Shown: positions 120-58,813 of the stretch, in pieces
Layout: the number at the start of each line of letters is the position of its first letter
Numbering within the stretch: the stretch's first letter is position 1
Virus record (IMG/VR): IMGVR_UViG_3300022888_000583
DNA from: a virus
Length of the DNA stretch: 64,000 nucleotides
Strand: one strand, 5' to 3'
Made by a program: the position numbers and the translations under genes
The notes under the pieces: generated by a model
What the model saw: the letters and a program-made list of their open reading frames with translations, nothing else
The model's database searches: none
Told to the model about the DNA's origin: nothing

Positions 120-365
120 CTATGATCATGGAAGCGGGACTGGTGTCACCGGAGTTCCTGATAAATAAATTCCTGTTCTAAATCAAACATCAATGATTGT
201 CGCCATACTGTTGGCAACTACTGATGCGGGTGCTCCACTCATTCCAATTGGAATTATTGGTGCAAATAATAATGGTGTAACTGGAGGAACATTTGGACCT
301 CCCGTTCCTGGGATTGACGACGCTACTACAGCGAATTGTAAAAATGCCGCTTGTAATAATGGCAA
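120..365 (-). CDS. Gly/Pro-rich low-complexity protein; reads through an in-frame TGA at 183-185 and ends at TAG 120-122; may extend upstream; possibly fibre-like
   Basis: Minus ORF 183..365 is closed by TGA; the same frame stays open down to TAG at 120. Gly/Pro-rich composition. Confidence 0.25.
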
Positions 366-574
366 TGCTCCAGCTGGTGGAAACTTGGGACCTATCGTTG
401 CAACAAATGCAGATTTGGCCCCAGCTAGATTACCCCCCGCGATTGGAAATAATGCCTGTTGAAAATATCCACCTAGGGCATCGGCTCAAGCTTGGGGCGT
501 AACGTCTTTCCCCGCTTCCATTGTCATCAAATCTGTTAAATTCTGTGCTAATATTGGTTGTAATAATGGCATTA

Positions 575-1687
575 TTAAAGTGTCTTATTCTGTGGACTCA
601 ACATTTGAGCCAATCTAGTTTTTATACCCGCAAACTGTGCCGCATTAACTGGAGGACCACTTGGGCCAACACCAGTTGGAACGGTTGTTTGTGTAATAGC
701 ATCTATTAATTCTTCTAGCAATCCCAACAACGCGTCTCCCAATACAATAGGTTCTGTGGCGTCATCTGATCCCAATTTTATTTCTGGTGATTCAACTACC
801 ATCTTAGTAGTGGCACCAATGACAACATTATTATTGGACAATATTCCAATATCTCCACCGTTCTTAGTATTAAATATCAACTTATCAGAATTTAGTATAA
901 TTTGTTTACCTTCATTTAGAGCTGGGATTAACGCACTTGGATACCCCTGAATAATCGTACTTTCTTCATCGGATAACATTCATATTGAAGATGCATCGGC
1001 GTCTAAATTTTCATCTATTGGTTTATGCAATACAGACTCGGTATCACTTTTTACGGAGGCCAGTCCAGCATGGTCGGCATCTAATAAATGACCAACTGAA
1101 ATTTTAATATTCGGTGATAGATTCGTTTCTAAACCATTTTTCCCAAAACGGATTCCCTGACCAAATCTGCCATTGAATAGTATGTCACCCTCATACGGTC
1201 ACAATTGTCTAATATCCGTATTTACGGTAAAAGTTTCACCAATTGAAAAATCTTCAATATCTTTGAAATTCGAGCTTATTCCGGGGATGGAATTGGCATT
1301 AACCGATGCGTTTATATTTAATTTTTGAGTATAAAATCTAGAATAGAGATAATCTGCAACAATGACATATTCACCCTTTAATGGATATTCCTTGATGTTG
1401 GTGTCGAGTGGATATATTCATTGTAATTCTTCAATATCCTTGCCACGTTCATCGTGAATAAGCCGTGCCTTTATAGAACCCATTAATGAATAATTTTTAG
1501 AACCATCTGGAAAATCGGGAATATCTGCCTCATCTAACAAAACCTCTAATACTTCAGCGACTTCCAATTCATAGAATTCACTGGAAAATTCCCTAGCTTT
1601 TTGTAATTTATAAACATCATTCAATGTAGTCATGCCCCCGCCGAATGCTGGGAGTGTGAATACTTTATTTGTTTTTCTATGTGCCAT
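575..1687 (-). CDS. Large structural-like protein (~370 aa) once TGA is read as a sense codon
   Basis: ORFs 1418..1687 and 575..979 share a frame. They are joined by in-frame TGA at 1418-1420 and 1199-1201, with no TAA or TAG between. Bounded by TAG upstream and TAA at 575. Confidence 0.5.
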
Positions 1688-2087
1688 CTACAAAATCCTT
1701 TGGTATTATCTGTTCAACGTCCTTCATTGTACTGTCGGCCTTTTTCTTCAATTTATCCAATTCATTTGACGCGTCTTCGATTAATCGTTTCTTTTCATCA
1801 TCGGATATTCCAAATTCCATTTCTGATCCGGATTTACCTTCAGCGGATATTAATTTTTGTATGATGCCAGCCAGCTTGATGAGATTTTCATCATTCTTAA
1901 CTTTGATATCAAAATATTCCTTAATGATAGGCACGATTGTAGCCGCGGACGATTTGTCCTTTATTAATTCGGCCACCTTGGCAATTAATAATTCCAGCTG
2001 CTGTTTATTCTCAGTACTATTTGTATAGATGTCCTCAAATAAACTTGACAAAGTTTTGTCTTTAAAAATTTCATATTCATTGTTCAT
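1677..2087 (-). CDS. hypothetical protein (136 aa, coiled-coil-like)
   Basis: Intact ORF with TAG stop; lies in the minus-strand gene train. Confidence 0.45.
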   Translation of the reverse strand: MNNEYEIFKDKTLSSLFEDIYTNSTENKQQLELLIAKVAELIKDKSSAATIVPIIKEYFDIKVKNDENLIKLAGIIQKLISAEGKSGSEMEFGISDDEKKRLIEDASNELDKLKKKADSTMKDVEQIIPKDFVDGT

Positions 2088-2195
2088 TTTCTGTCCTCTT
2101 AAGATGCGTATTATAACTCAGTAATAAATATAGACAAAGCAAAAAAAGGGCCTTAAATAAATAAGGCCCTCAATAATTCCAATTGTTATCAAATT

Positions 2196-3427: not shown

Positions 3428-4213
3428 TTATTTCTCCATTCCTTCAAAAATTTCCGTAAATGTGGCCATTGGATCAACCTTAGTCTTCGGTTTTTTCGAT
3501 TCGACCTTTGGTTTGGTCAGTGATTCTTTAATGCTATTAATAGCTTTTTTCTCTTGTTTCGTTTCCAAATTTACTACATTCATACGGGTGTCATATTCCA
3601 TGCGAGTAGCCATCCAATCTGCCCAATGGATAATAAATGGTAGATGATTTTTCATCTGCATTGCATCTGTATATGTATTGAAATATGATTTGTTCAATTC
3701 CTTAAACATTCCATCTGCCAGTCTGATGCCGTACATTTCATTATCCGTAATTTTGATATCGAATTGTTGTAATAAGAATAGTGACCTATCGGTGACATCC
3801 ATAAAATTTAGATCGGGGTTGTACTCATATCTGATACCCCGTTTGATTTGCCAATCCTGACTAACTGGTATATAATAATCGTGATTATAATCACCCAATT
3901 TTCCTAGATCGTGATGCATAGCCGCGAAGATTCTTTCTTCTTCTGTAAAGTCCGTTGTTCCACCAACATGCCGATACATCTTAGCCATTTTATCTGATAT
4001 ATCAATAATATTCAGACAATGCTTTAAATAACCACCCGGTACGGCTAAATGAAAATGATCCTTACCACTAGCAGGTGCTAGTAATAATCTATCTCCAAAA
4101 TGCTCATACATTTTAATTAAATTGTTTTTCCGTTCACCCTCAAATGTATCATCGATAACTTCCATGAATTTATCATAACATTCACCTATTTCTTCTGCTG
4201 TTAATTTAAACAT
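3428..4213 (-). CDS. HD-domain phosphohydrolase
   Basis: The H...HHDLGK motif is typical of the HD superfamily; 261 aa. Confidence 0.6.
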   Translation of the reverse strand: MFKLTAEEIGECYDKFMEVIDDTFEGERKNNLIKMYEHFGDRLLLAPASGKDHFHLAVPGGYLKHCLNIIDISDKMAKMYRHVGGTTDFTEEERIFAAMHHDLGKLGDYNHDYYIPVSQDWQIKRGIRYEYNPDLNFMDVTDRSLFLLQQFDIKITDNEMYGIRLADGMFKELNKSYFNTYTDAMQMKNHLPFIIHWADWMATRMEYDTRMNVVNLETKQEKKAINSIKESLTKPKVESKKPKTKVDPMATFTEIFEGMEK

Positions 4214-4236
4214 AACCTATTCCTTCTTTTTGTTTT

Positions 4237-4594
4237 AGTGGAGTTGGGCGGATTCGAACCGCCGTCCGCAACGTAATCTAAATAAGTCATTCACAAGCTT
4301 AGTATCCTTTTTATATTTGATGTCGGATTTGCTAAAAGGTTACAAAATAATTCCGGGGTTTATACCAACACCCGTGGTGATCCAGTTTGAATTCACTCAT
4401 ACTGTAAAAGTTATCTAATGACGACGTTGATTGCTACTATTAGAATCGTAGGTCAACGCTATAGCGCAATTAAGCTGCTACAGGGTATGCGTAATTTGTG
4501 CCAGTTATTTTCTGTTTGTTTAGTTTTTAGGACTCACTCTGTCCGCTTGCACTTATTGTCAAAAATCATCCCGTCGAATACCAATTACAACCCC
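4237..4594 (-). ncRNA. ssrA: tmRNA (SsrA), ~358 nt; tag ORF reads ...G-T-N-Y-A-Y-P-V-A-A-stop
   Basis: 5' end GGGGTTGTAATTGGTATTCGACGGGAT matches the tmRNA consensus GGGGnnGnnnnnGGnATTCGACGGG. 3' tRNA-like domain has T-arm GGCGGTTCGAATCCGCC and an acceptor stem with a G3-U70 pair. Internal reading frame ends ...TAC GCA TAC CCT GTA GCA GCT TAA. Confidence 0.75.
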
Positions 4595-4597
4595 GGG

Positions 4598-5069
4598 TTA
4601 ATCTATAAGTTTATAGCCCTTATGGCTTCGTTTCCGTTCAACGACTTGTTTATGGAAACTTTTTATATTCATGTCATGTTCACGGCATCATTTACTTAAA
4701 CCGTGAACTTCAAATATCAATCCATTTTCATCAATTAACGTATATGTTTTAGCAGTTAATTGATTTCCTTCATTGAAAGGTGTATTTCCATGTTTCCCCA
4801 AATTTCAATATCCCCTCGTCCCGACTGGAAATTTTGCATTTGTAACAGAAGAGCCTTTTCTACCACCTTCGATCATTGCTATTTCTTGACATTTATCTCC
4901 GTCAATTAGTCCCGCGAGACCTTTTCATGCTACTTCATCTTGTCACCTACCATGCTCTTCAAATAATTTCTTATGTGCTTCTGCATGATCTTCAGGCGTC
5001 AAAGTCTCTATATTTTCTGGGTCGTTTGTACCACCCGCATGTGTCGGTATCTTATGATGTTTATGCTTC
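4598..5069 (-). pseudogene. HNH homing endonuclease, apparently frameshifted (+1) and with several in-frame TGA; lies immediately 5' of the tmRNA
   Basis: Frame A gives MKHKHHKIPT. The adjacent frame gives HAGGTNDPENIETLTPEDHAEAHKKLFEEHG, a classic HNH motif. No ATG leads the HNH frame, and at least 5 in-frame TGA follow. Stop TAA at 4598-4600. Confidence 0.4.
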
Positions 5070-5113
5070 ATATATATAACTATCGTCTGATATTCTCAAA
5101 CGTCTGTATTATT

Positions 5114-5302
5114 TTAATCTTCTCTGTAATTGTCATCGGTGTCAAATCCAGCACCACCATTCGGAATATCATCCATATTGTAATCACTATACGGGTCCTC
5201 ATACTGAGCAATCAGAATATTGTGTGCTTCTTCAACTTTACCTCAATTAGAATCTTCTATTGCTTCTTCTAGCAAACTGAGAATAATATCTAATTTATCC
5301 AT
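5114..5302 (-). CDS. small acidic protein (62 aa) with one in-frame TGA
   Basis: AGGAGG Shine-Dalgarno then ATG at 5302; TAA at 5114; not in the standard-code track because of the TGA. Confidence 0.3.
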
Positions 5303-5560: not shown

Positions 5561-6655
5561 TTATTTCATTAAATGGGGCTTGGCTTCAATCTGGCCCGCA
5601 CTTGTTACTCGGACAAAATCACAATTGGCCTGAAATGTTTCAATATCAATTGCCCCACAATAACTCATGGCCGATTTTAATCCCTCTACTTGTTCCTTTA
5701 AAATTCTCTTAGCGGAACCTTTAAATTGAACTCGTACACTATTTCCTTCGATGTGGCTATCCTCACCCCTGTCCAATTTAGATGACAACGATGCGGAACC
5801 TCTATATTCCTTATACAGTTGTTCATTTGGATATTTACCCTCACGTTTGAACGTGCCGGGAGTTTCTTTTGTGCCCGCCAATAATGAACCAAGTACAACC
5901 GTACTTGCCCCAGCTCCAATGGCCTTCGCCATATCACCCGGAGTAGTAATTCCACCATTTGATGAAATTGGAACGTGTCCTCCGGCCCACATGGGTTCTC
6001 CACCACCTTGAGTATATACTCTGGTCATGGATTCCACGCATTCCTGTATGGATGAAATCATAGGAATTCCAACACCCGCTCTAATACGTGTTTCACATAA
6101 TGATCCCCCACCAATTCCAACATGAATCCCGTCAGCTCCCCACGCAATCAAGTCCCTAACCGCATCGGCGGTCGCGACCGTTCCCACAAATAATTCAGTT
6201 TGAATGCTGGTTGATTTAAGAAATTTAATCATATTTTTAACACCGATGTGATGCGCGTGTGCAACATCAATCATGAGAATATCAACTCCAGCATTTATCA
6301 ATCTTAAGGCCCGCTCTTTGTCGGCATCCTTGGCACCGATTGCGGCACCAATTGGATACTTGTGAATTTCCAATTCTTCATCGGTATAATCGGCAATCAA
6401 TTGGATGGTCTTTTCGACTTCCTCAACTTGATCATCAATTGACATAAATCTATGTATGAATCCAACCCCACCCTTTTGATACATTAGAGCGGCCATTCTA
6501 GATTCACATATGGAATCCATAGCGGTCGCGATTATTGGAATATCCAATATCCAATTAGTAGTGATGTGGGTCGAAATATCACAATTAGATCGGGAATCAA
6601 CTTCCGAAAATTTCGGTATAATTGAAACATCGTCAAATGTTAAAAATTCTTTCAT
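5561..6655 (-). CDS. guaC: GMP reductase / IMP dehydrogenase-family enzyme (GuaC-like, no CBS pair)
   Basis: GIGGGSLCETR and GIPMISSIQEC resemble GuaC GIGPGSVCTTR; 364 aa. Trp is encoded only by TGG. Confidence 0.7.
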   Translation of the reverse strand: MKEFLTFDDVSIIPKFSEVDSRSNCDISTHITTNWILDIPIIATAMDSICESRMAALMYQKGGVGFIHRFMSIDDQVEEVEKTIQLIADYTDEELEIHKYPIGAAIGAKDADKERALRLINAGVDILMIDVAHAHHIGVKNMIKFLKSTSIQTELFVGTVATADAVRDLIAWGADGIHVGIGGGSLCETRIRAGVGIPMISSIQECVESMTRVYTQGGGEPMWAGGHVPISSNGGITTPGDMAKAIGAGASTVVLGSLLAGTKETPGTFKREGKYPNEQLYKEYRGSASLSSKLDRGEDSHIEGNSVRVQFKGSAKRILKEQVEGLKSAMSYCGAIDIETFQANCDFVRVTSAGQIEAKPHLMK

Positions 6656-6656
6656 T

Positions 6657-7283
6657 CTAAACGCCGTATTTCAGAATTACTTTACTTAGGATAACGTCTC
6701 CACCCTTTTCGGAAACTTCATTAACCGCGGCTTCTGAACCTTCTTGGGTTACGCCGGCCATTGCATCTAAAACCATTACTACTTTGAATCCCTCATCAAT
6801 TGCGTGTAAGGCGGTGAATTTGACACAATAATCTGTTGCCAAACCAACCACATAAACCATATCAATCAAATTGGTTCTAAGTGTATCGGCCACTTCCGTA
6901 ATACCACTTCCATCATTTTCTCTAAATGCACTGAAAGGATGTAGGTTTTTATCTTCACCTTTTGAAAGTAAAATATGAACATCACCAACATTGAAATCCT
7001 TATGAAATTCAGCACCTTTAGTACCATTAACACAATGGACAGGCCATAGCATTTCTGGAATGCTATTCATAACACCCATTGCATAATCATCTAAACCTTG
7101 ATTCTTTGCAAAACTCAATGAATCTTTTGGATGGTAATCCCCAGACGCTAAAATCAAATCAAAATCGCCTTTTTCCATTAATTCATTAATGGTAGGAACG
7201 ATTGCATTTGCACCGTTAACACCCATAGCACCACCTTCACAAAAATCATTTTGTAAATCTACAACAAATAATGCTTTTCTCAT
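6657..7283 (-). CDS. pncA: nicotinamidase (isochorismatase family, PncA-like)
   Basis: N-terminus ALFVVDLQNDFCEGGAMGV is typical of PncA; 208 aa. Confidence 0.75.
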   Translation of the reverse strand: MRKALFVVDLQNDFCEGGAMGVNGANAIVPTINELMEKGDFDLILASGDYHPKDSLSFAKNQGLDDYAMGVMNSIPEMLWPVHCVNGTKGAEFHKDFNVGDVHILLSKGEDKNLHPFSAFRENDGSGITEVADTLRTNLIDMVYVVGLATDYCVKFTALHAIDEGFKVVMVLDAMAGVTQEGSEAAVNEVSEKGGDVILSKVILKYGV

Positions 7284-7284
7284 A

Positions 7285-7797
7285 TTATTCTCCTTTACCT
7301 ATCATGTAGGCTATTACTCTTGAACTTATCTTAAATCCAATTCTTTTATAGTGATCAATTGTCGCTTCAAGTCGATCTTGTGCAACAATTAAAACTTGTA
7401 TCTGTTCACCGTCATCCAGCTTCTGAGCACTTACTTTTTCACATCCAGCCATTCTAGCGGCCCAAACTTCTTCATCTGAACCTCCCGAATTACTCATTCC
7501 CAGAGGATACATTTTGGTGACTGAAGCTTCATATCCAGTTTCTTCAAGCAATTCCCTATCGGCCGTCTCGTATGGGGTTTCCCCTTCATCTACAAGCCCA
7601 GCTGGAAATTCCAATACTTTACAATCAACTGAATGTCTGAAATTTAAAATCATTATTAGATTATCATCCATGTCCGTTGGTATCATATATACCGCTTTAC
7701 GACCTCCAACACGAGATGTGAATTCATAATCATCGTGCCCTTCAACTTCTCGGGCTCGCATTTCCATCCACTTACCACTATATAAAACTTTAGTCAT
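7285..7797 (-). CDS. NUDIX hydrolase (ADP-ribose pyrophosphatase-like)
   Basis: Nudix box GLVDEGETPYETADRELLEETGYE; overlaps the nadE stop by 8 nt. Confidence 0.75.
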   Translation of the reverse strand: MTKVLYSGKWMEMRAREVEGHDDYEFTSRVGGRKAVYMIPTDMDDNLIMILNFRHSVDCKVLEFPAGLVDEGETPYETADRELLEETGYEASVTKMYPLGMSNSGGSDEEVWAARMAGCEKVSAQKLDDGEQIQVLIVAQDRLEATIDHYKRIGFKISSRVIAYMIGKGE

Positions 7798-8608
7798 TCT
7801 GATATTCCCTTATGTATGTTGGGGGTAATGTCTTTTTGTGATTGGATGAAATTATCCGAGACATTATTAGGTTTTGCTTTTCATATGAAATGGGACAATC
7901 GGCTTTCCATTCACTAGATGGAACATCCAAAGATTTTTTATACCACCGTAAAAATGCGTCAAGTTCAACATATGTTAAACCAATCTCATCTTCATCAGTC
8001 TGACCTTCCCATAATCCGGCAGAAGGTGGTTTATTGATAATTGACTTGGGAACTCCTAATTCTCGAGCCAATTCGTATACTTCATCTTTGTAATAGTCAC
8101 CGAGTGGTTCAAAATCAACCGCTCCGTCACCCCATTTTGTGAAGTAACCAATAGCGTGTTCTGTTTTGTTGCCAGTTCCAATGACTAGATAATCCAATTC
8201 GGATGCTACACCGTAAAGAACTGTCATTCTGATTCTAGCTTGAATATTAGCTAGTGTCATCTGGTTCATTTTACCATTACCATTACTATGCATGGCCGAT
8301 GGTCTTATAGCAGATTGAAAATCCATATACATGCCTGATGCATGAATAGTTTGATGATCAACTCCCCTACTTTCATATGCGTAATGCCACATATCAGTCG
8401 AATTTCCATATTCTTCTTCAGTATTGGCCAAAATTGGGATACTTATCGCGTGGACATTTTCTTTTCCGAGTGCTCTAATGGCTAGCTCGAAAGAAACGGC
8501 GGAATCAATCCCGCCGCTCAGTCCAATAACAACCCCAGTTTTGCCAGCACCATGAACATAATCCTTAATCCATTTTTCTAAATGTCTTACTTCTTTTTTA
8601 GTATCCAT
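7790..8608 (-). CDS. nadE: NH3-dependent NAD+ synthetase
   Basis: PP-loop GLSGGIDSAV; 272 aa; preceded by an AAGAGGGG Shine-Dalgarno. Confidence 0.85.
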   Translation of the reverse strand: MDTKKEVRHLEKWIKDYVHGAGKTGVVIGLSGGIDSAVSFELAIRALGKENVHAISIPILANTEEEYGNSTDMWHYAYESRGVDHQTIHASGMYMDFQSAIRPSAMHSNGNGKMNQMTLANIQARIRMTVLYGVASELDYLVIGTGNKTEHAIGYFTKWGDGAVDFEPLGDYYKDEVYELARELGVPKSIINKPPSAGLWEGQTDEDEIGLTYVELDAFLRWYKKSLDVPSSEWKADCPISYEKQNLIMSRIISSNHKKTLPPTYIREYQND

Positions 8609-8620
8609 GTTACCCCTCTT

Positions 8621-8667
8621 TCATACCTGAAGATACAAGATTTAATTGTAAAAGTCAAGCGTTATTT

Positions 8668-8668
<1 letters not shown>
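8621..8668 (-). promoter_or_regulatory. copy 1 of the conserved promoter/leader motif (minus orientation), upstream of nadE
   Basis: Reads CATACCTGAAGATACAAGATTTAATTGTAAAAGTCAAGCGTTATTTTT. Confidence 0.55.
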
Positions 8669-10302
<1,634 letters not shown>

Positions 10303-10308
10303 TTATTT

Positions 10309-11466
10309 TTATTGTAATCCTAACGTGAATTTGCAATTTTCTATTGCTTCTTGTGAATCACTTGTGTTTTTTCCTACATTGTCTGACAATTTAACCGCGT
10401 GAATTTTTCTTGAATTCCTATCGTAAATGCCACTTAATTTTATAACCATGTTCAATGGTATTACTCCAGTATCGTTGGTAAGGTTAGTACCAATTCCAAA
10501 TGAAGTTTTGATTTTATTTCTAAAATGTTCCGTTATTTCTACGGCTTTTGGTACATTCAATCCATCTGAAAATACTATCGTTTTTGACATTGGATCGATT
10601 CCCAATGATTTGTAATGCTCGATAATCTTCTCACCAAACTCAATTGGGTCTCCACTATCGTGCCGAACTCCATCGAATAATTTAGCGAAATACATATCAA
10701 AATCCTGTAAAAATACGTCTGTTGTATATGTATCTGTTAATGCGATACCCAAGCTTCCTCGGTATGTATCACTCCATTTTTCTAAAGATTTGTATGTAGC
10801 TGACTGATATCCGTATTTTGCTCCGTGAAACATAAACCATTCGTGGGCGTGTGTTCCAATTGGAGTAATATCGAATTGTTCAGCTAAATGTACATTACTT
10901 GTACCAACCAAAACGTCATGTAAATTCTCAATAACCAATCGATGAATTTCATAAGAACGCCGGCGCCGTGTACCAAAATCAGCCACCTTGATTTCCGAAC
11001 CTTGAATCATATTCCGTTTTGTGAGAATGCTATTCATTGTTTCGGGCATGTTTGGTAGTGATGATCTTAGATATACTTCAGAAATAATAGCCATTAAAGG
11101 TACTTCCCAAAGGATAGTTCTATACCAAGGTCCCATTATTGACAGTTCCAATTCGTTATTTTCATTGGAAGTCATCGTAACTTCACTTGGATCAAATCTA
11201 TATCCACTTAAAAAATCAAGATACATTCCATCCAAGTATGGAGCCTTATCTTCTAAGAATTTCCGTTCCTTTTCAGTTAATGACAATGTTGCCATAGCAT
11301 TAATTTCACGCTGAATCTCTTCAACGTGTTCGTGGGTGAATATGTTATTCTCTGGATTTCGATTTTTAAATCGGTATTCTACTATTGTATTTGGATAGTG
11401 CTTAACAACCGCGTTCTGCATCGTGAATTTGTACATATCATCATCTAAAATAGATTTTATAATCAT
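10309..11466 (-). CDS. pncB: nicotinate phosphoribosyltransferase
   Basis: 385 aa; N-terminus ILDDDMYKFTMQNAV matches PncB LDTDAYKLHMQQAV. Confidence 0.8.
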   Translation of the reverse strand: MIIKSILDDDMYKFTMQNAVVKHYPNTIVEYRFKNRNPENNIFTHEHVEEIQREINAMATLSLTEKERKFLEDKAPYLDGMYLDFLSGYRFDPSEVTMTSNENNELELSIMGPWYRTILWEVPLMAIISEVYLRSSLPNMPETMNSILTKRNMIQGSEIKVADFGTRRRRSYEIHRLVIENLHDVLVGTSNVHLAEQFDITPIGTHAHEWFMFHGAKYGYQSATYKSLEKWSDTYRGSLGIALTDTYTTDVFLQDFDMYFAKLFDGVRHDSGDPIEFGEKIIEHYKSLGIDPMSKTIVFSDGLNVPKAVEITEHFRNKIKTSFGIGTNLTNDTGVIPLNMVIKLSGIYDRNSRKIHAVKLSDNVGKNTSDSQEAIENCKFTLGLQ

Positions 11467-11479
11467 AACCTTGTCCTTT

Positions 11480-12061
11480 TTAATCTTCTATAAATAGTTT
11501 CCAATTTCCTGAAAGTATCAAACTTTCTGCCTTTTTCCATTTTAATTCTCGTTTTTCTTCATCCCTTGTTATTGTCACCTTTTCATTTCTGCCAAACTTT
11601 CGCTCGGACTTAATTGGTTCCAACTTGACTTCCCGATCAAACATAGTAATTCCATTCAAATGGTCCAATTCGTGTTGAGCGGCGACACATTCTAACATAT
11701 CAATTTCATTTCTACTCAACGATGTAAAACATACACCTGCAGGATAATTATCAGCTGATACTTCTATTGTACTAAATCTTTTTGTTTTTGCTGATTTTCC
11801 GGGGAATGATAGGCATCCCTCATCGTAATAGATTTCCCCAGACTGATTCGTAATTTTTGGATTGATGAGATAAATAGGTTCTTTTACATTGATAACCACG
11901 ACATTCTTTTCAATTCCAATTTGGTTGGCGGCGATTGCCACCCCAGCTTCAGACGTGGATAAAACATCAAATAACTGTGCGGCAATCAGTTCACCTTCTT
12001 CAAGTGAGACATCCACACATTTATTTCTTAGAAGTTTTTCGTCTGTAATAATTTTATTCAT
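11480..12061 (-). CDS. def: peptide deformylase (the track ORF over-extends the N-terminus; likely start MNKIITDEKLL)
   Basis: Motifs GVAIAANQIG, EGCLSFPG and HELDHLNG. Confidence 0.85.
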   Translation of the reverse strand: MNKIITDEKLLRNKCVDVSLEEGELIAAQLFDVLSTSEAGVAIAANQIGIEKNVVVINVKEPIYLINPKITNQSGEIYYDEGCLSFPGKSAKTKRFSTIEVSADNYPAGVCFTSLSRNEIDMLECVAAQHELDHLNGITMFDREVKLEPIKSERKFGRNEKVTITRDEEKRELKWKKAESLILSGNWKLFIED

Positions 12062-15274: not shown

Positions 15275-15352
15275 TTATTTTCTTCTACTTTCTCACATCT
15301 TTTTATCTGCACATGGCTTTGAACAAGTCTTTTTGTATCTGCCATTTTTGTA

Positions 15353-15970
15353 TCATCGTGGGTATGTATAAATTTCATATTCCTGTCCACATACAGGGCA
15401 TTTCAACTGGAAATATTCTTGGATGGTTTTACCTTTGTTCCAAGTATTAGTCAATTCCCCACTTGCAAATTTTTTCTTTTTTGTAATTTTTTGTTTCTCT
15501 GATCCTGCTTTGATACGGGGATCGTCGGATGTTAATCCTTTGTTCCACGGTTCCTGACCCATGTGGGAATCACTATTCTTTTTCCTAGTTTCGGCCGTTT
15601 GTTTATGACCAGTTAAAGCGATAGAAACATTCCGATTGCGTTCAGCTGAATGCCATGGTTGTCCGTTGTTATGCCTCGCCTTAATTATTTTCTTGGAAGC
15701 TTCTGGTGTGCATCCACCTTCACCACCAGGATACAAATTATATCCAATATTGACAGCATCGGTCATTTTAATTCAATATATTTCTCTGATATTCAATTGT
15801 GTTTCATCCTCACAATGCTCTATAACTTCTTTAACAAAATTTTCCTTGCCGTATTTTTTTATTGCTTTTTTCAATATGGACCCCGAACCAATATAGTCGG
15901 GGTCATCATATTTAGATTTCCCTATGTAGAATTTGCCGTTTAAGGTGTTTGTAGTTTTGTATATAATCAT
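15353..15970 (-). CDS. GIY-YIG homing endonuclease (I-TevI-like) with NUMOD-like C-terminus; one in-frame TGA at 15773-15775
   Basis: IYKTTNTLNGKFYIGKS...YIGSGSILKKAIKKYG, then the joint REIY-[TGA]-IKMTDAVNIGYNLYPGGEGG matches I-TevI ERENFWIKELNSKINGYNI, putting TGA at the Trp position. Confidence 0.7.
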
Positions 15971-16530: not shown

Positions 16531-16585
16531 TTATAGTTGGGTATAATAATTTTTACCCAACCATTATAGTTGGGTATAATAATTG
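16531..16585 (+). repeat. tandem direct repeat 2 x ~22 nt (TATAGTTGGGTATAATAATT), resembling an extended -10 TGnTATAAT element
   Basis: Two identical copies at 16531-16552 and 16564-16585. A third copy lies on the minus strand at ~33282-33299 upstream of tRNA-Pro. Confidence 0.5.
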
Positions 16586-16670
16586 AGGAAGATACTGGAA
16601 TCGAACCAGTGTACCCTTACGGACAGCCTTAGGTTAGCAACCTAGCACATTACCACTCTGTCAATCTTCC
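16586..16670 (-). tRNA. tRNA-Ser(GCT), type II
   Basis: Acceptor GGAAGAT/ATCTTCC; anticodon loop TTGCTAA; long variable arm; T-arm ACTGGTTCGATTCCAGT. Confidence 0.65.
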
Positions 16671-16710
16671 TTGTTAATAAGTATCTGTTAATATGCGTAA
16701 ATACAATTAT

Positions 16711-17373
16711 TTATGCATCAATTGCATGTAATTCTGGTATAAACACCTTTGTAATTTGAACATTTTCAGCGTATGCTAAATCCGTTCCATCTGTTGTCAA
16801 AATATCAATTGCCATTCGGTGACGGAAATTCATAGTATCTTCAATCTGATAAATGCCATCCCAAATGCCCGCACCTGTTACTTCCACATAATCACCCATT
16901 TCGAATATTCCCTTACCATATGCGGGGTCATCCTCTGGCAATCGGTGACTTAATTTTGTATGCATGTCCCAACTAATTGCAATCCATCTATGTTGTGACG
17001 CATTTGGTATATCAATTTTTGCACCACTTGCGGTAATATCTGGGTCGGCATCACATTGGGCTTCGACTGGGTAATAATTTGTTACCCTTACCGCCAATGA
17101 TGTTGGTTTTTCCAATTCGGTTACTCTCGCTTCCAAATCCACAATGTGCTTTAAAGCATCCGTTAAATCTATATATTGTTCATACGCTACCATTTGTAGT
17201 GTATCTATTTCTCCTTGCAAATGTACTTCCATTGGAAATACTGATATTGCATTGTATGATAATACAACCATTAGGCTGAATATTAATGTTACCGACATTA
17301 CTATTAAAAGTAATTTCTTAACGCTCATAATGAGCATTGTCGGTATCTTAATTTCTGGGTCTTCGGTTTTCAT
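16711..17373 (-). CDS. membrane-anchored protein with a 3D/RlpA-like domain (possible peptidoglycan hydrolase)
   Basis: N-terminal TM helix; the C-terminus ...VEVTGAGIWDGIYQIEDT...AIDIL resembles 3D-domain cell-wall hydrolases. Confidence 0.4.
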   Translation of the reverse strand: MKTEDPEIKIPTMLIMSVKKLLLIVMSVTLIFSLMVVLSYNAISVFPMEVHLQGEIDTLQMVAYEQYIDLTDALKHIVDLEARVTELEKPTSLAVRVTNYYPVEAQCDADPDITASGAKIDIPNASQHRWIAISWDMHTKLSHRLPEDDPAYGKGIFEMGDYVEVTGAGIWDGIYQIEDTMNFRHRMAIDILTTDGTDLAYAENVQITKVFIPELHAIDA

Positions 17374-17428
17374 TTTAACTCCTTGTTTTTATTGTAGAAA
17401 TAAGTATCAAATCAAATTATTTCCAGTG

Positions 17429-17500
17429 TAATCTCGGAAGGAATCGAACCTTCATTTCGGGTTTAGGAAACCCACGCACTTTCCGTTGTACTACGAGATC
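17429..17500 (-). tRNA. tRNA-Arg(CCT)
   Basis: Anticodon loop TTCCTAA; T-arm GAAGGTTCGATTCCTTC. Confidence 0.65.
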
Positions 17501-17503
17501 ATG

Positions 17504-17521
17504 TGCCCCCACTTAAGGGGG
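17504..17521 (-). terminator. perfect 6-bp GC hairpin GCCCCC-ACTTAA-GGGGGC between the gene stop and the tRNA 5' end
   Basis: Seen directly; no clear U-tract; could be a terminator or a processing site. Confidence 0.3.
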
Positions 17522-17529
17522 CTAGTTGT

Positions 17530-18369
17530 TTATCGACCTATGGATTTCATTGGTTGTACGGAATCATTCCCGATATTAATAAGAAGGTCAACATTCTCAT
17601 TATCTTTAGCCAACTCTACGATTTCCTTTTGAATTTCAAGTTCACGTAGTCTAAGGTATTCAGAATTTGTCATATTAAATTCTTTCTTATACGCCTTATC
17701 TGCGGTAGCTTTATTCAATTCAGCAGCGGCCCGATTTAATTCTGCAGCAGCTCGAGCATCTTCTGTTTTCTGACGCTGTTTCTGTGCTGCGGTTTTTATC
17801 GTTTCATCCAAAACCAATTGTGGTGGTGTCACCTTACCAATATTAACACGAACGACTTCTAATGGAAGACCCTGTTCTAAAATATATGCTTCGATATTTG
17901 CCCACGCTGATAGAGCCATTGAGTCTGTTACTGCCCCATCGGTTGTCAATGCAAACATGGTTTGTCCACGACCGAAATTTCGAATAAACCCTCTAAATTT
18001 CTTCGCGATTTTATTCTTATACCAATTAACTCCAGCAATTTCATGCAATAGTGGGGTTTTGTTATCCACAATTTTTAATTCGAGAAATGCATCAAAATCG
18101 ACTGGGTTGTTGTCCGCCGTAATAAGATCATTAAAATTCTCTTTATATTCTGTGGGATAGATAATATAAGTTTCATCCGATGTCGTAAACAAAGTCCACC
18201 GGGTTTCCCCAGCAATCAATGGTTCCGGAATGATACCACTCATAAACCCAAAAATAATAGGCTTCCTCACAAAAACCACTTCTTCACCAGCATCCGCTGA
18301 CGATACACTACAATCCATTACTGAAAACGCCATAATGAATATTAACAATACCAACATAAATTTTCTCAT
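17530..18369 (-). CDS. secreted SPFH/band-7 (prohibitin/HflK-like) domain protein
   Basis: Signal peptide MRKFMLVLLIFIMAFSV; C-terminal Ala/Glu-rich coiled region typical of SPFH proteins. Confidence 0.5.
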   Translation of the reverse strand: MRKFMLVLLIFIMAFSVMDCSVSSADAGEEVVFVRKPIIFGFMSGIIPEPLIAGETRWTLFTTSDETYIIYPTEYKENFNDLITADNNPVDFDAFLELKIVDNKTPLLHEIAGVNWYKNKIAKKFRGFIRNFGRGQTMFALTTDGAVTDSMALSAWANIEAYILEQGLPLEVVRVNIGKVTPPQLVLDETIKTAAQKQRQKTEDARAAAELNRAAAELNKATADKAYKKEFNMTNSEYLRLRELEIQKEIVELAKDNENVDLLINIGNDSVQPMKSIGR

Positions 18370-18394
18370 TTTTTCTCCTTTGAGCTTTATGTGT

Positions 18395-18787
18395 TTATAA
18401 CTTATCTACCCCATCTACCAACCAGGTAAATGGAGCTCTTATTGATTTGTCAAACTTAGCCATCATATTAATAGCACCTGCGGGATTTAATGAATGGACA
18501 TAAATAGTTTCATTATTACCTTTCACTCCCTGTTTAACTAACCACTTTGCAAATTCAGAGCCAGTATTTGACTCCTGAATACTTACCATTTGATCTCCAC
18601 CCAAATCATGATCTAAGAAATAGATATCAAAAATGGTATCATATTTATTCCACTTGATTTTGGCATCTTCAATTTCATCAGACCATACGATTTTATAATC
18701 ATCAGTATCTAACAATTCCGGCATGTGTTTATAAAACCATTCCATCCTGTCCATGTCATCTTCAAGTATAAAGACGCTTATGGTCAT
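18395..18787 (-). CDS. hypothetical protein (130 aa; receiver-like acidic pocket)
   Basis: ILEDD...DLGG pattern; weak. Confidence 0.4.
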   Translation of the reverse strand: MTISVFILEDDMDRMEWFYKHMPELLDTDDYKIVWSDEIEDAKIKWNKYDTIFDIYFLDHDLGGDQMVSIQESNTGSEFAKWLVKQGVKGNNETIYVHSLNPAGAINMMAKFDKSIRAPFTWLVDGVDKL

Positions 18788-19374
18788 TATTTAACACCGA
18801 TAATACTGTCTATCAAACCATATTCTACGGCTTCTTCTGCCGACATGAAAAAATTGCGGTCGGCATCTTTTTCAATTCGATTGAGTCTTTTGCCACAAAA
18901 TTTGGCTAACATTTGATTCATTTTCTTTTTGGTTTTTTGAATCTCTTCTGCCGCAATTATGATATCTGAAGCCTGTCCTTGGGCTCCTCCCATCGGTTGA
19001 TGAATCATAATTTTGGAATTTGGTAAAGCAAATCGTTTACCCTTTTCTCCAGCCGCTAACAATAATGCTCCCATACTAGAAGCCTGTCCAACGGCAATCG
19101 TTGAAACATCAGCTTTAATAAAATTCATTGTGTCCATAATGGCCAAGCCAGAAGTAATAATTCCACCGGGGCTATTGATATACAGATTAATATCTTTTTC
19201 ATTATCTTCAGATTCAAGAAAAAGTAATTGTGCAATTACTGCAGTAGATACATTATCGTCAATCGGAGTACTCAAGAAAATAATCCGTTCCTTTAATAGA
19301 CGACTGAAAATGTCATAAGCACGTTCTCCTCGCCCAGTTTGTTCTACAACCATTGGTATTAATTGATTAATCAT
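18787..19374 (-). CDS. clpP: ATP-dependent Clp protease proteolytic subunit
   Basis: [11 protein letters not shown] and MIHQPMGG catalytic motifs; 195 aa. Confidence 0.85.
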
Positions 19375-19377
19375 ATT

Positions 19378-19986
19378 TTAGTCTTCCATTTCTATTTCGA
19401 AAATGGCCGCTAAATTCTCACCATTTTCAATGGCCGTTTGGGCCTTATCGTAATCTTCCATTGTCACACTTTCAATTGGAAATTCACCGATTAGATGAAC
19501 TCCACCATAACCTTGACTATCCTTTTCAGCGTCGGAATACCTACCATTAATTTTATCCTTTTCAAACCCAGTATAAAATTCCAACCGCTCCGTGTCCAAA
19601 TTGATGATATATGCATATTCACAAAAAAGTGAATTGGATAAAAATTCTTCAGAATCTATCATAAATCCAACTTTAACATTTGATTCAAGTAAACCCTGTC
19701 CCTCCCTTAAAAGACAATACCAGTCGTCATCAGATTGGGTTGCAACCCCATCATCAAATAATCCATTGTCCTTGCACAACTGTTTTTGCACAGTAGTTGG
19801 GGTGTCATCTTCATTAACCATAGTAATCGCGTCAAAATCTTCATTCAGATTTTTCAAATCACGACCCCTATTTTCTAAATATAAAATTACATTCTTGCCC
19901 AATTCACTTGGATAAGAATCATAATGATTATATGTTACTTTATGTTCTCCGTTTCTAATAAATCCGAGTGCTCCTCGAGTTCCCAT
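19378..19986 (-). CDS. hypothetical protein (202 aa)
   Basis: Intact ORF. Confidence 0.45.
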   Translation of the reverse strand: MGTRGALGFIRNGEHKVTYNHYDSYPSELGKNVILYLENRGRDLKNLNEDFDAITMVNEDDTPTTVQKQLCKDNGLFDDGVATQSDDDWYCLLREGQGLLESNVKVGFMIDSEEFLSNSLFCEYAYIINLDTERLEFYTGFEKDKINGRYSDAEKDSQGYGGVHLIGEFPIESVTMEDYDKAQTAIENGENLAAIFEIEMED

Positions 19987-20282: not shown

Positions 20283-20300
20283 TTTCTGTCTCCTTTTGTG

Positions 20301-21845: not shown

Positions 21846-21846
21846 T

Positions 21847-22068: not shown

Positions 22069-22071
22069 AAT

Positions 22072-22638: not shown

Positions 22639-22655
22639 AATTTTATCCTTTTTAG

Positions 22656-27415: not shown

Positions 27416-27423
27416 CGTTTGTG

Positions 27424-27497
27424 CAGGGGTATCAGGATTCGAACCCGATCTTCATGGTTTTGGAGACCATCGTGCTACCGTTAAACACTATACCCCT
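27424..27497 (-). tRNA. tRNA-Trp(CCA)
   Basis: Acceptor AGGGGTA/TACCCCT; anticodon loop CTCCAAA. Confidence 0.65.
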
Positions 27498-58140: not shown

Positions 58141-58419
58141 ATGAATGAACATAAGGATTCTATGCAGGACGACGAACGTAAACAATTAAACGAACAGGTA
58201 GGGCACATGACCCATAAAGAAGTTGATGTTATGGAGAACACCCCTGAACTGTTTGAATATTTGTACGGGAATATCACAATGGGGACATTCAGTAAATTGA
58301 AGAAATTAAAAAGGTTATCAAAAAGTCCAAACGAAAACGAAGCATTCAGAGCATACAGAAAATGTCTGAAATTGTGTGAGCAATACAACGTGGAGTTTGA
58401 CAAAATACCAACAGGATAA
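58141..58419 (+). CDS. hypothetical protein (92 aa)
   Basis: ORF. Confidence 0.4.
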   Translation: MNEHKDSMQDDERKQLNEQVGHMTHKEVDVMENTPELFEYLYGNITMGTFSKLKKLKRLSKSPNENEAFRAYRKCLKLCEQYNVEFDKIPTG

Positions 58420-58423
58420 AATA

Positions 58424-58813
58424 ATGAGAACACCAATATTATCATTGACTAAAAAAGATTTCCATATCAGATGGTTTTCAGGTTCTGGTGCCGGTGGCCA
58501 GCATCGTAACAAGTCGGATAACTTGTGTGAAATTACTCACATTGAAAGTGGGATCAAACAAAAATGCACCGCCCACAAATCAAGAGAACAGAATAAGAAG
58601 GAAGCATTCAAGAATCTATGTGCCAAGCCAGAGTTCAAATTATGGTTGGCAAAAAAGACTGGAACGTATGTTGAAGTCAAACGAGATATGGATGTTGTTA
58701 GAAATTACAACTATGGCCGCAATGAAGTGAAAGACCATAGGACAGGCAAGAAATACAAACTAGACAAAATCCTAAAAGGTGAACTAGACCAAATTAGGAA
58801 AGACTACAGATAA
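58424..58813 (+). CDS. arfB: GGQ-motif peptidyl-tRNA hydrolase domain protein (ArfB/YaeJ-like ribosome rescue factor)
   Basis: FSGSGAGGQHRNK is the GGQ motif of class-I release factors and ArfB; ~129 aa; basic C-terminal tail. Confidence 0.6.
   Translation: MRTPILSLTKKDFHIRWFSGSGAGGQHRNKSDNLCEITHIESGIKQKCTAHKSREQNKKEAFKNLCAKPEFKLWLAKKTGTYVEVKRDMDVVRNYNYGRNEVKDHRTGKKYKLDKILKGELDQIRKDYR

What the first reader, a model, noticed from the sequence alone, without database searches (positions are those of the whole stretch)
4237..5069. tmRNA with an unusual tag, abutted by a frameshifted HNH endonuclease
The tmRNA has a textbook 5' end and tRNA-Ala-like 3' domain (G3-U70). Its tag ORF ends ...NYAYPVAA rather than the common ...ALAA. 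A degraded HNH homing endonuclease gene ends with its TAA exactly at the tmRNA 5' end, suggesting endonuclease-mediated mobility or acquisition of the ssrA gene. An ArfB-like GGQ protein (58424..58813) and peptide deformylase add to a translation-rescue toolkit.
Basis: partly seen in the sequence, partly recalled or inferred. Interest (0 to 1): 0.7.

Follow-up and report, generated by a model that had tools for sequence, protein, structure and literature searches.

The report
Phage tmRNA with adjacent mobile HNH endonuclease
A large uncultured phage carries its own ribosome-rescue RNA (tmRNA), and the "broken" nuclease gene beside it is an intact mobile endonuclease written with TGA as tryptophan, from a family that repeatedly sits at the 5' end of phage tmRNA genes.

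Summary
The tmRNA is real: ARAGORN and Rfam RF00023 (96.9 bits, E 1.5e-36) place it at 4236-4594 (-). It has G3-U70 and the tag (A)GTNYAYPVAA. Related phages keep it with compensatory stem changes.

The tag is not exceptional. It has the modal length of 10 aa, and VAA endings are known ClpX degrons.

The HNH gene (4598-5071, -) is not frameshifted or degraded. It is one frame with four in-frame TGA codons. Three fall on invariant or near-invariant Trp columns of 30 homologs. Elsewhere in the window, TGA hits the Trp of a thioredoxin WCxxC motif and alternates only with TGG in orthologs. So this is a partly TGA=Trp recoded phage with 41 tRNAs and a GOLLD RNA.

The HNH is an ORF-precise insertion that the closest relatives, which still have the tmRNA, lack.

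The unexpected result is that this HNH clade is strongly linked to phage tmRNA genes. All 7 assessable top homologs and 22 of 80 IMG/VR loci lie at a tmRNA. The stop codon is usually within a few nt of the tmRNA 5' G. In 10 loci the ORF sits between the two pieces of a permuted tmRNA gene.

It is most likely a tmRNA-gene-targeting homing endonuclease. Cleavage was not tested.

The parts
4236..4594 (-). One-piece tmRNA (ssrA) gene. The 3' end encodes ...CUCCA-CUA, so CCA is not fully encoded.
   Evidence: ARAGORN. Rfam RF00023 96.9 bits, E 1.5e-36, full-length model match. Conserved with compensatory changes in relatives.
4588..4594 (-). 5' acceptor strand GGGGUUG. G3 is at 4592 and pairs with U at 4242 (G3-U70, the AlaRS identity pair).
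   Evidence: Read from the sequence and the Rfam alignment. G3-U is kept in all relatives while positions 5-7 covary.
4470..4502 (-). Tag reading frame: resume codon GGC, then ACA AAU UAC GCA UAC CCU GUA GCA GCU, then UAA, giving (A)GTNYAYPVAA.
   Evidence: ARAGORN coding part 93-125; checked against the sequence.
4239..4263 (-). T-arm (GGCGG UUCGAAU CCGCC), 3' acceptor strand CAACUCC (4240-4246) and discriminator A (4239).
   Evidence: Rfam alignment. Four of the five T-stem pairs show compensatory changes in relatives.
4598..5071 (-). Intact free-standing HNH endonuclease gene, 157 aa under TGA=Trp, TAA stop 3 nt before the tmRNA 5' end. No obvious Shine-Dalgarno sequence upstream.
   Evidence: Single frame. 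Pfam HNH. 261 homologs, with full-length members of about 155 aa. Catalytic H5/H6, N20, H29 and H33 invariant. AF2 model pLDDT 86, two domains. ORF-precise indel against L004.
4943..4945 (-). In-frame TGA, codon 43 of the HNH, read as Trp.
   Evidence: W43 is invariant in the alignment of 30 homologs.
4925..4927 (-). In-frame TGA, codon 49 of the HNH, read as Trp.
   Evidence: W49 is invariant.
4808..4810 (-). In-frame TGA, codon 88 of the HNH, in the variable linker.
   Evidence: The closest homologs P0001-P0003 have W here; the column is variable otherwise.
4688..4690 (-). In-frame TGA, codon 128 of the HNH, read as Trp.
   Evidence: W128 is conserved in >=90% of homologs.
5114..5302 (-). 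Small 62-aa ORF upstream of the HNH, with an in-frame TGA at 5243-5245.
   Evidence: The ortholog in L004 (4630-4797) has TGG at the same position.
3428..4213 (-). HD-type metal-dependent phosphohydrolase-like gene immediately downstream of the tmRNA. It is the conserved flank used to find relatives.
   Evidence: PHROG 28876, 1e-14. 83-99% identical orthologs in L001-L004.
27423..27497 (-). The only Trp tRNA in the window, anticodon CCA. No UCA-anticodon tRNA is found among the 41 tRNAs.
   Evidence: ARAGORN.
58376..58813 (+). It is 54 kb from the tmRNA.
   Evidence: Pfam RF-1, 1.3e-17. NCBIfam: RF1 75 bits, ArfB 19.8 bits against a cutoff of 100. GGQ motif in the translation.
11480..12061 (-). 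Peptide deformylase.
   Evidence: NCBIfam TIGR00079, 3.7e-25. Relatives L023 and L025 have PDF about 1 kb upstream of their HNH-tmRNA pair.

Best explanation
The locus is a functional phage-encoded one-piece tmRNA gene with a mobile free-standing HNH homing-endonuclease gene inserted immediately 5' of it. The genome is a large, tRNA-rich uncultured phage that reads TGA as tryptophan in a subset of its genes.

Shown: the tmRNA has every sequence and structure hallmark and evolves under structural constraint. The HNH ORF is intact under TGA=Trp. The HNH is an ORF-precise insertion absent from the closest tmRNA-bearing relatives. Members of the same HNH clade lie at the 5' end of tmRNA genes in many unrelated phage contigs, or between the two pieces of permuted tmRNA genes, usually with the stop codon within a few nt of the tmRNA G1.

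Inferred: the tmRNA is co-transcribed with the HNH and released by RNase P at G1 (4594). It is then 3'-trimmed and CCA-tailed, charged with Ala by host AlaRS, and used with host SmpB for trans-translation. Stalled products receive (A)GTNYAYPVAA and are sent to ClpXP-type proteases, keeping ribosomes free during infection.

Also inferred: the HNH nicks or cuts HNH-less ssrA alleles of co-infecting relatives, and repair copies the HNH together with adjacent tmRNA sequence. Sitting just upstream of an RNase P site, or in the discarded spacer of a two-piece tmRNA gene, makes the insertion harmless to the RNA. Four UGA codons and a weak ribosome-binding site would keep endonuclease synthesis low and dependent on the phage's UGA-decoding state.
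For: tmRNA: (two independent detectors); 25 of 82 predicted pairs keep pairing through changes on both sides across three lineages, and G3-U is kept.

Relatives with tags GTQVQYAVAA, GTNYAIAA and GAPLQLAA, all terminated by TAA.

TGA=Trp: HNH W43, W49 and W128. Thioredoxin 'AQ-TGA-CTPC'. All 8 window TGAs in shared genes align to TGA or TGG in orthologs. TGA is rarely a terminator (57 TAA, 9 TAG, 9 TGA, most of the TGA cases read through).

Insertion: the relatives have about 136 nt where the window has the 470-nt ORF. Homology stops at the HNH ATG and resumes at ATTAAC(C/T)C|GGGG.

Association: 7 of 7 assessable top homologs are next to a tmRNA. 22 of 80 IMG/VR loci have one within 1.5 kb, 10 of them nested. 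From a published 2.3% of phage genomes with a tmRNA (PMC9004378), I estimate a chance expectation below 0.1% per locus.

Geometry: the gap from stop codon to G1 is +3, +1 (several loci), -8 and -13 nt.

Architecture: HNH core, disordered linker and a small C-terminal module. The best PDB match is I-HmuI.

Mosaic tmRNA: the 5' part is 83% identical to the L005-type allele against 68% to the syntenic relative L004, and the 3' part reverses this.
Against: No cleavage, expression or processing data exist. Homing is inferred from distribution and architecture only.

The I-HmuI fold match is statistically weak (E 0.08).

58 of the 80 clade members in IMG/VR are not near a tmRNA, so the link is a property of sub-lineages, not the whole clade. 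Some loci are the same phage seen in different samples, so counts are not fully independent.

No UCA-anticodon tRNA, TrpRS or RF1 was found in the 64-kb window, so how UGA is decoded is unknown.

The mosaic pattern rests on three lineages and could reflect replacement in L004 rather than in the window.
Confidence: 0.75

Rival explanations
1. One reading: the HNH is a decaying, frameshifted pseudogene left over from an event in which the endonuclease brought ssrA into the genome.
For: Under the standard code the ORF is broken into pieces of 42, 37 and similar numbers of aa. It abuts the tmRNA.
Against: There is one frame, not several. All interruptions are TGA, and three fall on conserved Trp. 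The same TGA usage occurs in a thioredoxin active site and alternates with TGG in orthologous genes shared with relatives. A 99%-identical copy exists in another sample. The tmRNA is present without the HNH in the closest relatives.
Confidence: 0.03
2. The HNH-tmRNA adjacency is inherited synteny of a domesticated HNH with some cellular role, for example in tmRNA or tRNA biology or DNA metabolism, and not active homing.
For: Adjacency persists across HNH proteins only 36-55% identical and across one-piece and two-piece tmRNAs. Stop-codon-to-G1 junctions are very precise, which could mean co-expression is selected.
Against: The HNH is absent from the closest syntenic relatives and from another tmRNA lineage. 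The indel is ORF-precise. Several different configurations exist: upstream co-oriented, divergent, convergent and nested. Many clade members sit elsewhere, some beside tRNAs. The two-domain architecture is typical of phage homing endonucleases.
Confidence: 0.15
3. The phage tmRNA, with the GGQ protein and PDF, exists specifically to cope with TGA recoding. Suppression of UGA stops would make ribosomes run to mRNA 3' ends, raising the demand for rescue.
For: A tmRNA, a stand-alone GGQ protein and a PDF co-occur in a TGA-recoded genome. TGA is avoided as a terminator in phage genes. The HNH in this recoded phage ends in TAA, whereas several standard-code relatives end in TGA.
Against: Phages L023 and L025 carry the HNH-tmRNA pair plus a nearby PDF, yet have 0 in-frame TGA and use TGA as a stop. 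tmRNAs occur in about 2% of phages generally. The GGQ gene is 54 kb away.
Confidence: 0.15
4. The tmRNA is a decoy or inhibitor of host trans-translation rather than a working rescue RNA.
For: A truncated phage tmRNA-like RNA (mycobacteriophage DS6A) is reported to inhibit host tmRNA (cited in PMC11915505).
Against: Here the gene is full length with an intact tag frame, a conserved resume codon, a TAA stop and a hydrophobic-Ala-Ala end. All of these are maintained across diverged relatives.
Confidence: 0.07

Closest known systems
Phage-encoded tmRNAs (e.g. OM43 phage Melnitz, pelagimyophages, huge phages)
   Same: A complete ssrA gene carried by a lytic-type large phage next to other translation-related genes. 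Reported in 402 of 18,146 phage genomes (PMC9004378) and in huge phages (PMC7162821).
   Different: This one is a one-piece tmRNA with no near relative in the INPHARED collection. Its tag family is GT..(V/I)AA, it sits in a TGA-recoded genome, and it has an HNH gene fused to its 5' flank.
Free-standing phage homing endonucleases next to their target genes (T4 seg/mob genes; SegB in the T4 tRNA cluster - recalled from memory, not checked here)
   Same: A small nuclease ORF inserted between conserved genes, patchy among close relatives, with a catalytic domain plus a flexible DNA-binding tail. It is associated with structured-RNA genes.
   Different: The catalytic family is HNH, whereas SegB is GIY-YIG. 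The partner is a tmRNA gene. The junction is fixed within a few nt of the RNA's mature 5' end. Cleavage is untested.
I-HmuI (phage SPO1 intron-encoded HNH nicking endonuclease, PDB 1u3e)
   Same: It is the best full-length structural match to the predicted model. It has an HNH core followed by an extended linker and a C-terminal DNA-binding module.
   Different: 14% identity, E 0.08. I-HmuI is intron-encoded in a DNA polymerase gene. Here there is no intron.
Group I introns, some with LAGLIDADG homing endonuclease genes, in the T-loop of bacterial tmRNA genes (PMC11915505)
   Same: Shows that tmRNA genes are recurrent targets of selfish elements whose removal restores the RNA.
   Different: Those are self-splicing introns in bacteria at T-loop subsites. 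Here the elements are HNH ORFs without introns in phages, placed upstream of G1 or in the spacer of permuted genes. Removal would rely on tRNA-processing enzymes.
Stop-codon-recoded phages (code 4, TGA=Trp; Borges et al. preprint 10.1101/2021.08.26.457843)
   Same: In-frame TGA is concentrated in a subset of genes while others remain standard-code compatible. TGA is depleted as a stop. Only 35% of such genomes have a detectable suppressor tRNA.
   Different: Those phages came from gut microbiomes; the environment here is unknown. In this window the recoded genes include three nuclease-type mobile genes and a thioredoxin.
ArfB (alternative ribosome-rescue factor B)
   Same: The 145-aa protein at 58376-58813 is short and carries a GGQ peptidyl-tRNA hydrolase domain.
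   Different: It scores 19.8 bits against a cutoff of 100 for ArfB and aligns better to domain 3 of RF1/RF2. Its C-terminus resembles the RF domain-3 end rather than an ArfB tail (by eye).

Membership tests
tmRNA (Rfam RF00023, one-piece) | Covariance-model score above the curated gathering threshold over the full model | tested here: met
   96.9 bits against 47, model 1-374 of 374, E 1.5e-36. ARAGORN agrees.
tmRNA (Rfam RF00023, one-piece) | tRNA-Ala-like domain: 7-bp acceptor stem with G3-U70, T-arm, discriminator A | tested here: met
   GGGGUUG/CAACUCC with G3(4592)-U(4242); GGCGG-UUCGAAU-CCGCC; A at 4239.
tmRNA (Rfam RF00023, one-piece) | Internal tag reading frame with resume codon, in-frame stop and a hydrophobic-Ala-Ala C-terminus | tested here: met
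   GGC...GCU UAA at 4502-4470 encodes GTNYAYPVAA. Relatives have GTQVQYAVAA and GTNYAIAA.
tmRNA (Rfam RF00023, one-piece) | Structure maintained by covariation in homologs | tested here: met
   25 of 82 predicted pairs have compensatory changes in three lineages. Acceptor positions 5-7 and four of the five T-stem pairs covary. Only three lineages were compared, so support is modest.
tmRNA (Rfam RF00023, one-piece) | Alanylation, SmpB binding, trans-translation activity | not testable with these tools
   Needs biochemistry. No SmpB gene was detected in the window (weak test).
Free-standing HNH homing endonuclease | HNH catalytic motif with conserved His/Asn/His | tested here: met
   PF01844 24.8 bits against a cutoff of 21.4. 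H5, H6, N20, H29 and H33 are invariant in 30 homologs.
Free-standing HNH homing endonuclease | Separate DNA-binding module joined by a flexible linker | tested here: inconclusive
   The AF2 model has two confident domains and a disordered linker at 81-108. The best PDB hit is I-HmuI, but at E 0.08.
Free-standing HNH homing endonuclease | Presence/absence polymorphism among close relatives, with ORF-precise boundaries | tested here: met
   Absent in syntenic L001, L002 and L004. Boundaries lie at the ATG and at the 8 nt before tmRNA G1.
Free-standing HNH homing endonuclease | Recurrent occupation of the same genomic site (target-linked) | tested here: met
   7 of 7 top homologs and 22 of 80 IMG/VR loci lie at tmRNA genes. 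The stop-to-G1 gap is -13 to +3 nt in 12 of the 20 loci measured.
Free-standing HNH homing endonuclease | Site-specific cleavage of the endonuclease-less allele and biased inheritance | not testable with these tools
   Requires enzyme assays or mixed infections.
TGA=Trp (code 4) recoded phage | In-frame TGA at conserved Trp positions of homologous proteins | tested here: met
   HNH W43, W49 and W128. The W of the thioredoxin WCxxC motif.
TGA=Trp (code 4) recoded phage | TGA and TGG interchange between orthologs; TGA depleted as a terminator | tested here: met
   8 of 8 TGAs align to TGA or TGG. Stops: 57 TAA, 9 TAG, 9 TGA, of which at most 4 could be genuine terminators.
TGA=Trp (code 4) recoded phage | Phage-encoded UGA suppressor tRNA (anticodon UCA) or other code-change machinery | tested here: not met
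   None among the 41 tRNAs; only Trp-CCA. The rest of the genome was not available. Only 35% of such phages have a detectable suppressor.
ArfB | Score above the curated cutoff of the ArfB equivalog model | tested here: not met
   NF006718 19.8 bits against a cutoff of 100. RF1 and RF2 models score 64-75 bits over domain 3 only.
ArfB | GGQ motif in a short stand-alone protein | tested here: met
   SGAGGQHRNK in a 145-aa ORF. Pfam RF-1, 1.3e-17.

The most novel reading that the evidence does not exclude
A clade of HNH homing endonucleases is specialised on phage tmRNA genes. It inserts at the RNase P site just 5' of G1, or into the discarded spacer of two-piece tmRNA genes. It thereby uses the host's tRNA-processing enzymes as a free substitute for intron splicing, and it drives exchange of ssrA alleles between co-infecting phages. 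In this recoded phage its synthesis is additionally gated by four UGA codons.
Probability: 0.5. Interest if true: 0.65.

Novelty: new member of a known kind. Interest (0 to 1): 0.5.

Why it matters
In this window each component belongs to a known kind: a phage tmRNA, a free-standing HNH endonuclease, and partial TGA=Trp recoding. The correction still has practical weight. Standard-code annotation would wrongly label this HNH and other genes as pseudogenes.

The broader result is the recurrent, nucleotide-precise pairing of one HNH clade with phage tmRNA genes, including ORFs nested inside permuted tmRNA genes. I did not find this described in the searched literature. If cleavage is confirmed, tmRNA genes join rRNA, tRNA and polymerase genes as homing targets. 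It would also show a way for a selfish ORF to sit inside an RNA gene without an intron, and it would give a mechanism for the mosaic ssrA alleles seen among related phages.

Tried and rejected
1. Crude stop-to-stop ORF statistics under alternative codes were not decisive in this AT-rich sequence. I replaced them with per-gene TGA/TGG counts, homolog alignments and ortholog codon comparison.

2. I searched GTDB genomes with a 19-nt tmRNA 5' segment to find a bacterial donor or host. It gave 10 hits, none in a tmRNA. That used the only genome scan, so the host remains unknown.

3. INPHARED phages have no close relative of the locus. The HNH finds only motif-level or 26-42% identity matches there. 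Those HNH genes (S-SKS1, S-H34, RB11-B) sit between protein genes with no tmRNA, so they served as negative controls.

4. ARAGORN alone badly under-detected tmRNAs next to HNH genes, finding 8 of 80 loci. Covariance models raised this to 22 of 80. My early '7 of 7' impression had to be tempered, because the link holds for sub-lineages and not the whole clade.

5. The idea that the tmRNA is tied to recoding was weakened by the standard-code relatives L023 and L025.

6. The promoter/terminator scan around the locus gave no more hits than shuffled sequence.

8. I rejected a packaging-type HNH (terminase-associated), because no terminase is nearby. I rejected an attP remnant of a host tmRNA, because the gene is full length.
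Full report
OBSERVATION

Two independent detectors find a complete one-piece tmRNA on the minus strand. ARAGORN places it at 4238-4594 with tag GTNYAYPVAA*. Rfam RF00023 places it at 4236-4594 with 96.9 bits against a gathering score of 47, E 1.5e-36, covering model positions 1-374 of 374.

Reading the sequence gives these features:
- The acceptor stem is GGGGUUG (4594-4588) paired with CAACUCC (4246-4240), with G3(4592)-U(4242).
- The T-arm is GGCGG-UUCGAAU-CCGCC.
- The discriminator is A (4239).
- The 3' end reads A-CUA, so CCA must be completed after transcription.
- The tag frame is GGC ACA AAU UAC GCA UAC CCU GUA GCA GCU UAA (4502-4470).

The window is clearly phage-like. It has 41 tRNA genes on one strand and a GOLLD RNA with an embedded tRNA. 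It also encodes GroEL, NAMPT and an IMPDH/GMP-reductase-like enzyme. Its best protein match among deposited phages is a 484-kb uncultured phage.

THE 'FRAMESHIFTED' HNH IS INTACT

The region 5071-4598 (-) is one reading frame interrupted only by four TGA codons, and it contains no TGG. With TGA read as Trp it gives a 157-aa protein that matches Pfam HNH. A search of the 5.8-billion-protein database returns 261 homologs, many of them full length at about 155 aa.

In an alignment of 30 of these homologs, residues 43 and 49 are invariant Trp and residue 128 is at least 90% Trp. The catalytic H5, H6, N20, H29 and H33 are also invariant. The fourth TGA lies in a variable linker.

The same code appears elsewhere in the window:
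- A thioredoxin (Pfam 6.6e-16) reads AQ-TGA-CTPC, which places TGA on the Trp of the WCxxC motif.
- The small ORF 5114-5302 has TGA where its ortholog in relatives has TGG.
- Across about 10 kb of synteny, all 8 window TGAs in shared genes align to TGA or TGG and never to another codon. TGG-only genes stay TGG.
- TGA is rarely a terminator. The counts are 57 TAA, 9 TAG and 9 TGA, and most of the TGA cases continue as coding sequence.

TGA use is concentrated in a minority of genes. These include the HNH, a GIY-YIG endonuclease, a PD-(D/E)XK-like endonuclease, the thioredoxin, a weakly spanin-like protein and several unannotated ORFs. This fits the published picture of partly recoded phages, in which only 35% have a detectable suppressor tRNA. 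No UCA-anticodon tRNA is present in the window, and the only Trp tRNA has anticodon CCA.

THE tmRNA IS THE CONSTANT FEATURE AND THE HNH IS THE VARIABLE ONE

Viral contigs whose neighbouring HD-phosphohydrolase gene is 83% identical (L001, L002, L004) are syntenic over about 10 kb. They carry a tmRNA with tag GTQVQYAVAA. Another lineage (L005, L006, L010, L011) has tag GTNYAIAA. A 99%-identical strain (L022) repeats the window's arrangement.

Across these lineages G3-U is kept, while acceptor positions 5-7 and the T-stem change in a compensatory way. In total 25 of 82 predicted pairs show double changes. The gene is therefore under structural selection.

The relatives lack the HNH. Homology with L004 runs up to the TTATATATA just before the HNH ATG. 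It resumes at ATTAAC(C/T)C|GGGG, the 8 nt before tmRNA G1, which contain the HNH TAA. The 470-nt ORF thus replaces about 136 nt of spacer.

The tmRNA itself is mosaic. Its first 100 alignment columns are 83% identical to the L005-type allele but 68% to syntenic L004. The last 94 columns are 74% identical to L004 and 64% to L005. This indicates exchange of ssrA sequence next to the insertion, although only three lineages were compared.

THE HNH CLADE IS LINKED TO PHAGE tmRNA GENES

I looked up the contigs of the best homologs. Every one with enough flank has a tmRNA gene at the HNH:
- P0003 (55% identity) lies 61 nt upstream of a one-piece tmRNA with tag GAPLQLAA.
- P0007 (47%) overlaps the 5' end of a tmRNA by 8 nt. 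ARAGORN missed this tmRNA, but Rfam scores it at 85.9 bits.
- P0009, P0021 and P0028 (40-46%) lie 18-24 nt from two-piece tmRNA genes, in divergent orientation.
- P0040 (36%) overlaps a two-piece tmRNA gene.

A systematic sample gave a more sober figure. Of 80 IMG/VR loci encoding the clade, 22 have a tmRNA within 1.5 kb. That is 6 of 36 full-length matches and 16 of 44 that share mainly the N-terminal catalytic part. From the published figure that 2.3% of phage genomes carry a tmRNA, I estimate a chance expectation below 0.1% per locus.

In 10 loci the permuted-tmRNA model spans the HNH ORF. For L076 and L054 the alignments show that the ORF begins after the acceptor piece's ...CUCCACCA and ends just before the coding piece's GGGG. 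The ORF therefore lies in the spacer that is discarded during maturation.

The junction is very precise:
- The stop codon ends 3 nt before G1 in the window.
- It ends 1 nt before G1 in L076, L054, L056, L093 and L097, and by eye also in L048 (TTATGA-T-GGGG). The motif search did not score L048.
- In L025 and L037 it is supplied by the tmRNA's own UGA at positions 6-8.

The recoded window uses TAA at this junction, whereas the standard-code relatives often use TGA.

More distant HNH genes in cultured cyanophages sit between protein genes with no tmRNA.

An AlphaFold model (pLDDT 86) shows an HNH core, a disordered linker (81-108) and a small C-terminal module. The best PDB match is the phage homing endonuclease I-HmuI, but only at E 0.08.

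MECHANISM

Shown: a structurally constrained, full-length tmRNA; an intact HNH; an ORF-precise and patchy insertion; and a recurrent, site-precise association with tmRNA 5' ends.

Inferred for the tmRNA:
- It is co-transcribed with the HNH. There are only 3 nt between them, and the promoter and terminator scan found nothing above background.
- It is released by RNase P at G1 and charged by host AlaRS.
- It works with host SmpB. None was detected in the window, though that test was weak.
- It tags stalled products with a hydrophobic-Ala-Ala degron. VAA-type tags are ClpX substrates.

Inferred for the HNH: it cuts HNH-less ssrA alleles in mixed infections and is copied in by repair, dragging adjacent tmRNA sequence with it. 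A site just upstream of an RNase P cleavage site, or inside a spacer that is removed anyway, makes the insertion neutral for the RNA. Four UGA codons and the absence of an obvious Shine-Dalgarno sequence would limit endonuclease synthesis.

RIVAL READINGS
- A pseudogene is excluded by the code evidence.
- Inherited synteny of a domesticated HNH is possible, but it fits poorly with the presence/absence pattern and the several configurations.
- A specific link between the tmRNA and recoding is weakened because L023 and L025 have the HNH-tmRNA pair, and a nearby PDF, in standard code with TGA stops.
- A decoy role is unlikely given the conserved tag frame.

COMPARISON WITH WHAT IS KNOWN
- Phage tmRNAs are known.
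- Partial TGA recoding is known.
- Free-standing homing endonucleases beside conserved genes are known.
- Selfish elements in bacterial tmRNA genes are known in the form of group I introns, some carrying LAGLIDADG genes. A tRNA in a permuted tmRNA spacer has been reported as unique.

I found no description of HNH genes at or inside phage tmRNA genes in three literature searches. The coverage of that library is limited.

The tag is not remarkable. The 'ArfB-like' protein is a GGQ-domain protein that fails the ArfB model cutoff.

VERDICT

In the window itself this is a new member of known kinds. The wider HNH-tmRNA association is the interesting lead and needs an enzyme test.

Noticed in passing
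window 27785-28257 (-): A GOLLD RNA (Rfam RF02032, 190 bits, full model) lies inside the tRNA array, with a tRNA-Arg(tct) (28107-28180) embedded in it.
   Followed up: no
window 16585-33774 (-): An array of 41 tRNA genes, all on one strand, with no Met/fMet (CAT) tRNA. Two have odd class-II-like long variable arms: 'Ile(tat)' 26164-26253 (90 nt) and 'Asn(gtt)' 29346-29432 (87 nt).
   Followed up: partly
window 27423-27497 (-): The only Trp tRNA has anticodon CCA and a U11-A24 D-stem pair. From memory, this is the pair created in the Hirsh UGA-suppressor tRNATrp. No UCA tRNA was found, although TGA codes for Trp in a subset of genes.
   Followed up: partly
window 15275-15970 (-) and 29435-30010 (-): Two further nuclease-type mobile-looking genes carry in-frame TGAs. 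One is a GIY-YIG/NUMOD3 endonuclease (3 TGA). The other is a PD-(D/E)XK-like endonuclease (PHROG 15137, 5 TGA), wedged between two tRNA-Asn genes.
   Followed up: partly
window 42555-42800 (-): A thioredoxin has TGA encoding the Trp of its WCxxC active-site motif. This is a clean marker of the TGA=Trp code.
   Followed up: yes
window 120-2192 (-): Three adjacent ORFs with no family match use TGA for every Trp and have no TGG. In relatives these positions are TGA or TGG. They may be structural or late genes.
   Followed up: partly
window 5561-12061 (-): A block of auxiliary genes lies upstream of the tmRNA: IMPDH/GMP-reductase-like, an NAD-synthase-like ORF (identified by eye only), GroEL (PHROG 5725, 8e-180), a NAMPT-like gene and a peptide deformylase. 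None has an in-frame TGA inside its likely coding region.
   Followed up: partly
L004 5437-5997 (also L001, L002): The relatives carry a 186-aa ORF between the tmRNA 3' end and the HD gene that the window lacks. By eye it looks macro-domain-like; this was not tested.
   Followed up: no
L023 3035-3673; L025 2094-2732: In two standard-code phages a peptide deformylase gene lies about 1 kb upstream of the HNH-tmRNA pair. This suggests a conserved PDF...tmRNA neighbourhood in this phage group.
   Followed up: no
L094 2734-2808: A tRNA that ARAGORN labels 'Pyl', which would imply a CUA anticodon and a potential amber suppressor, sits about 330 nt downstream of a two-piece tmRNA that itself follows an HNH gene. 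I did not inspect the anticodon.
   Followed up: no
L104 and L113, 282-456: A manA RNA motif (RF01745, 61 bits) lies upstream of HNH genes in two viral contigs.
   Followed up: no
window 53564-54067, 46989-47243, 21078-21398: Several genes end in TGA followed within 0-4 codons by TAA or TAG. These look like back-up stops, consistent with TGA being read through.
   Followed up: partly
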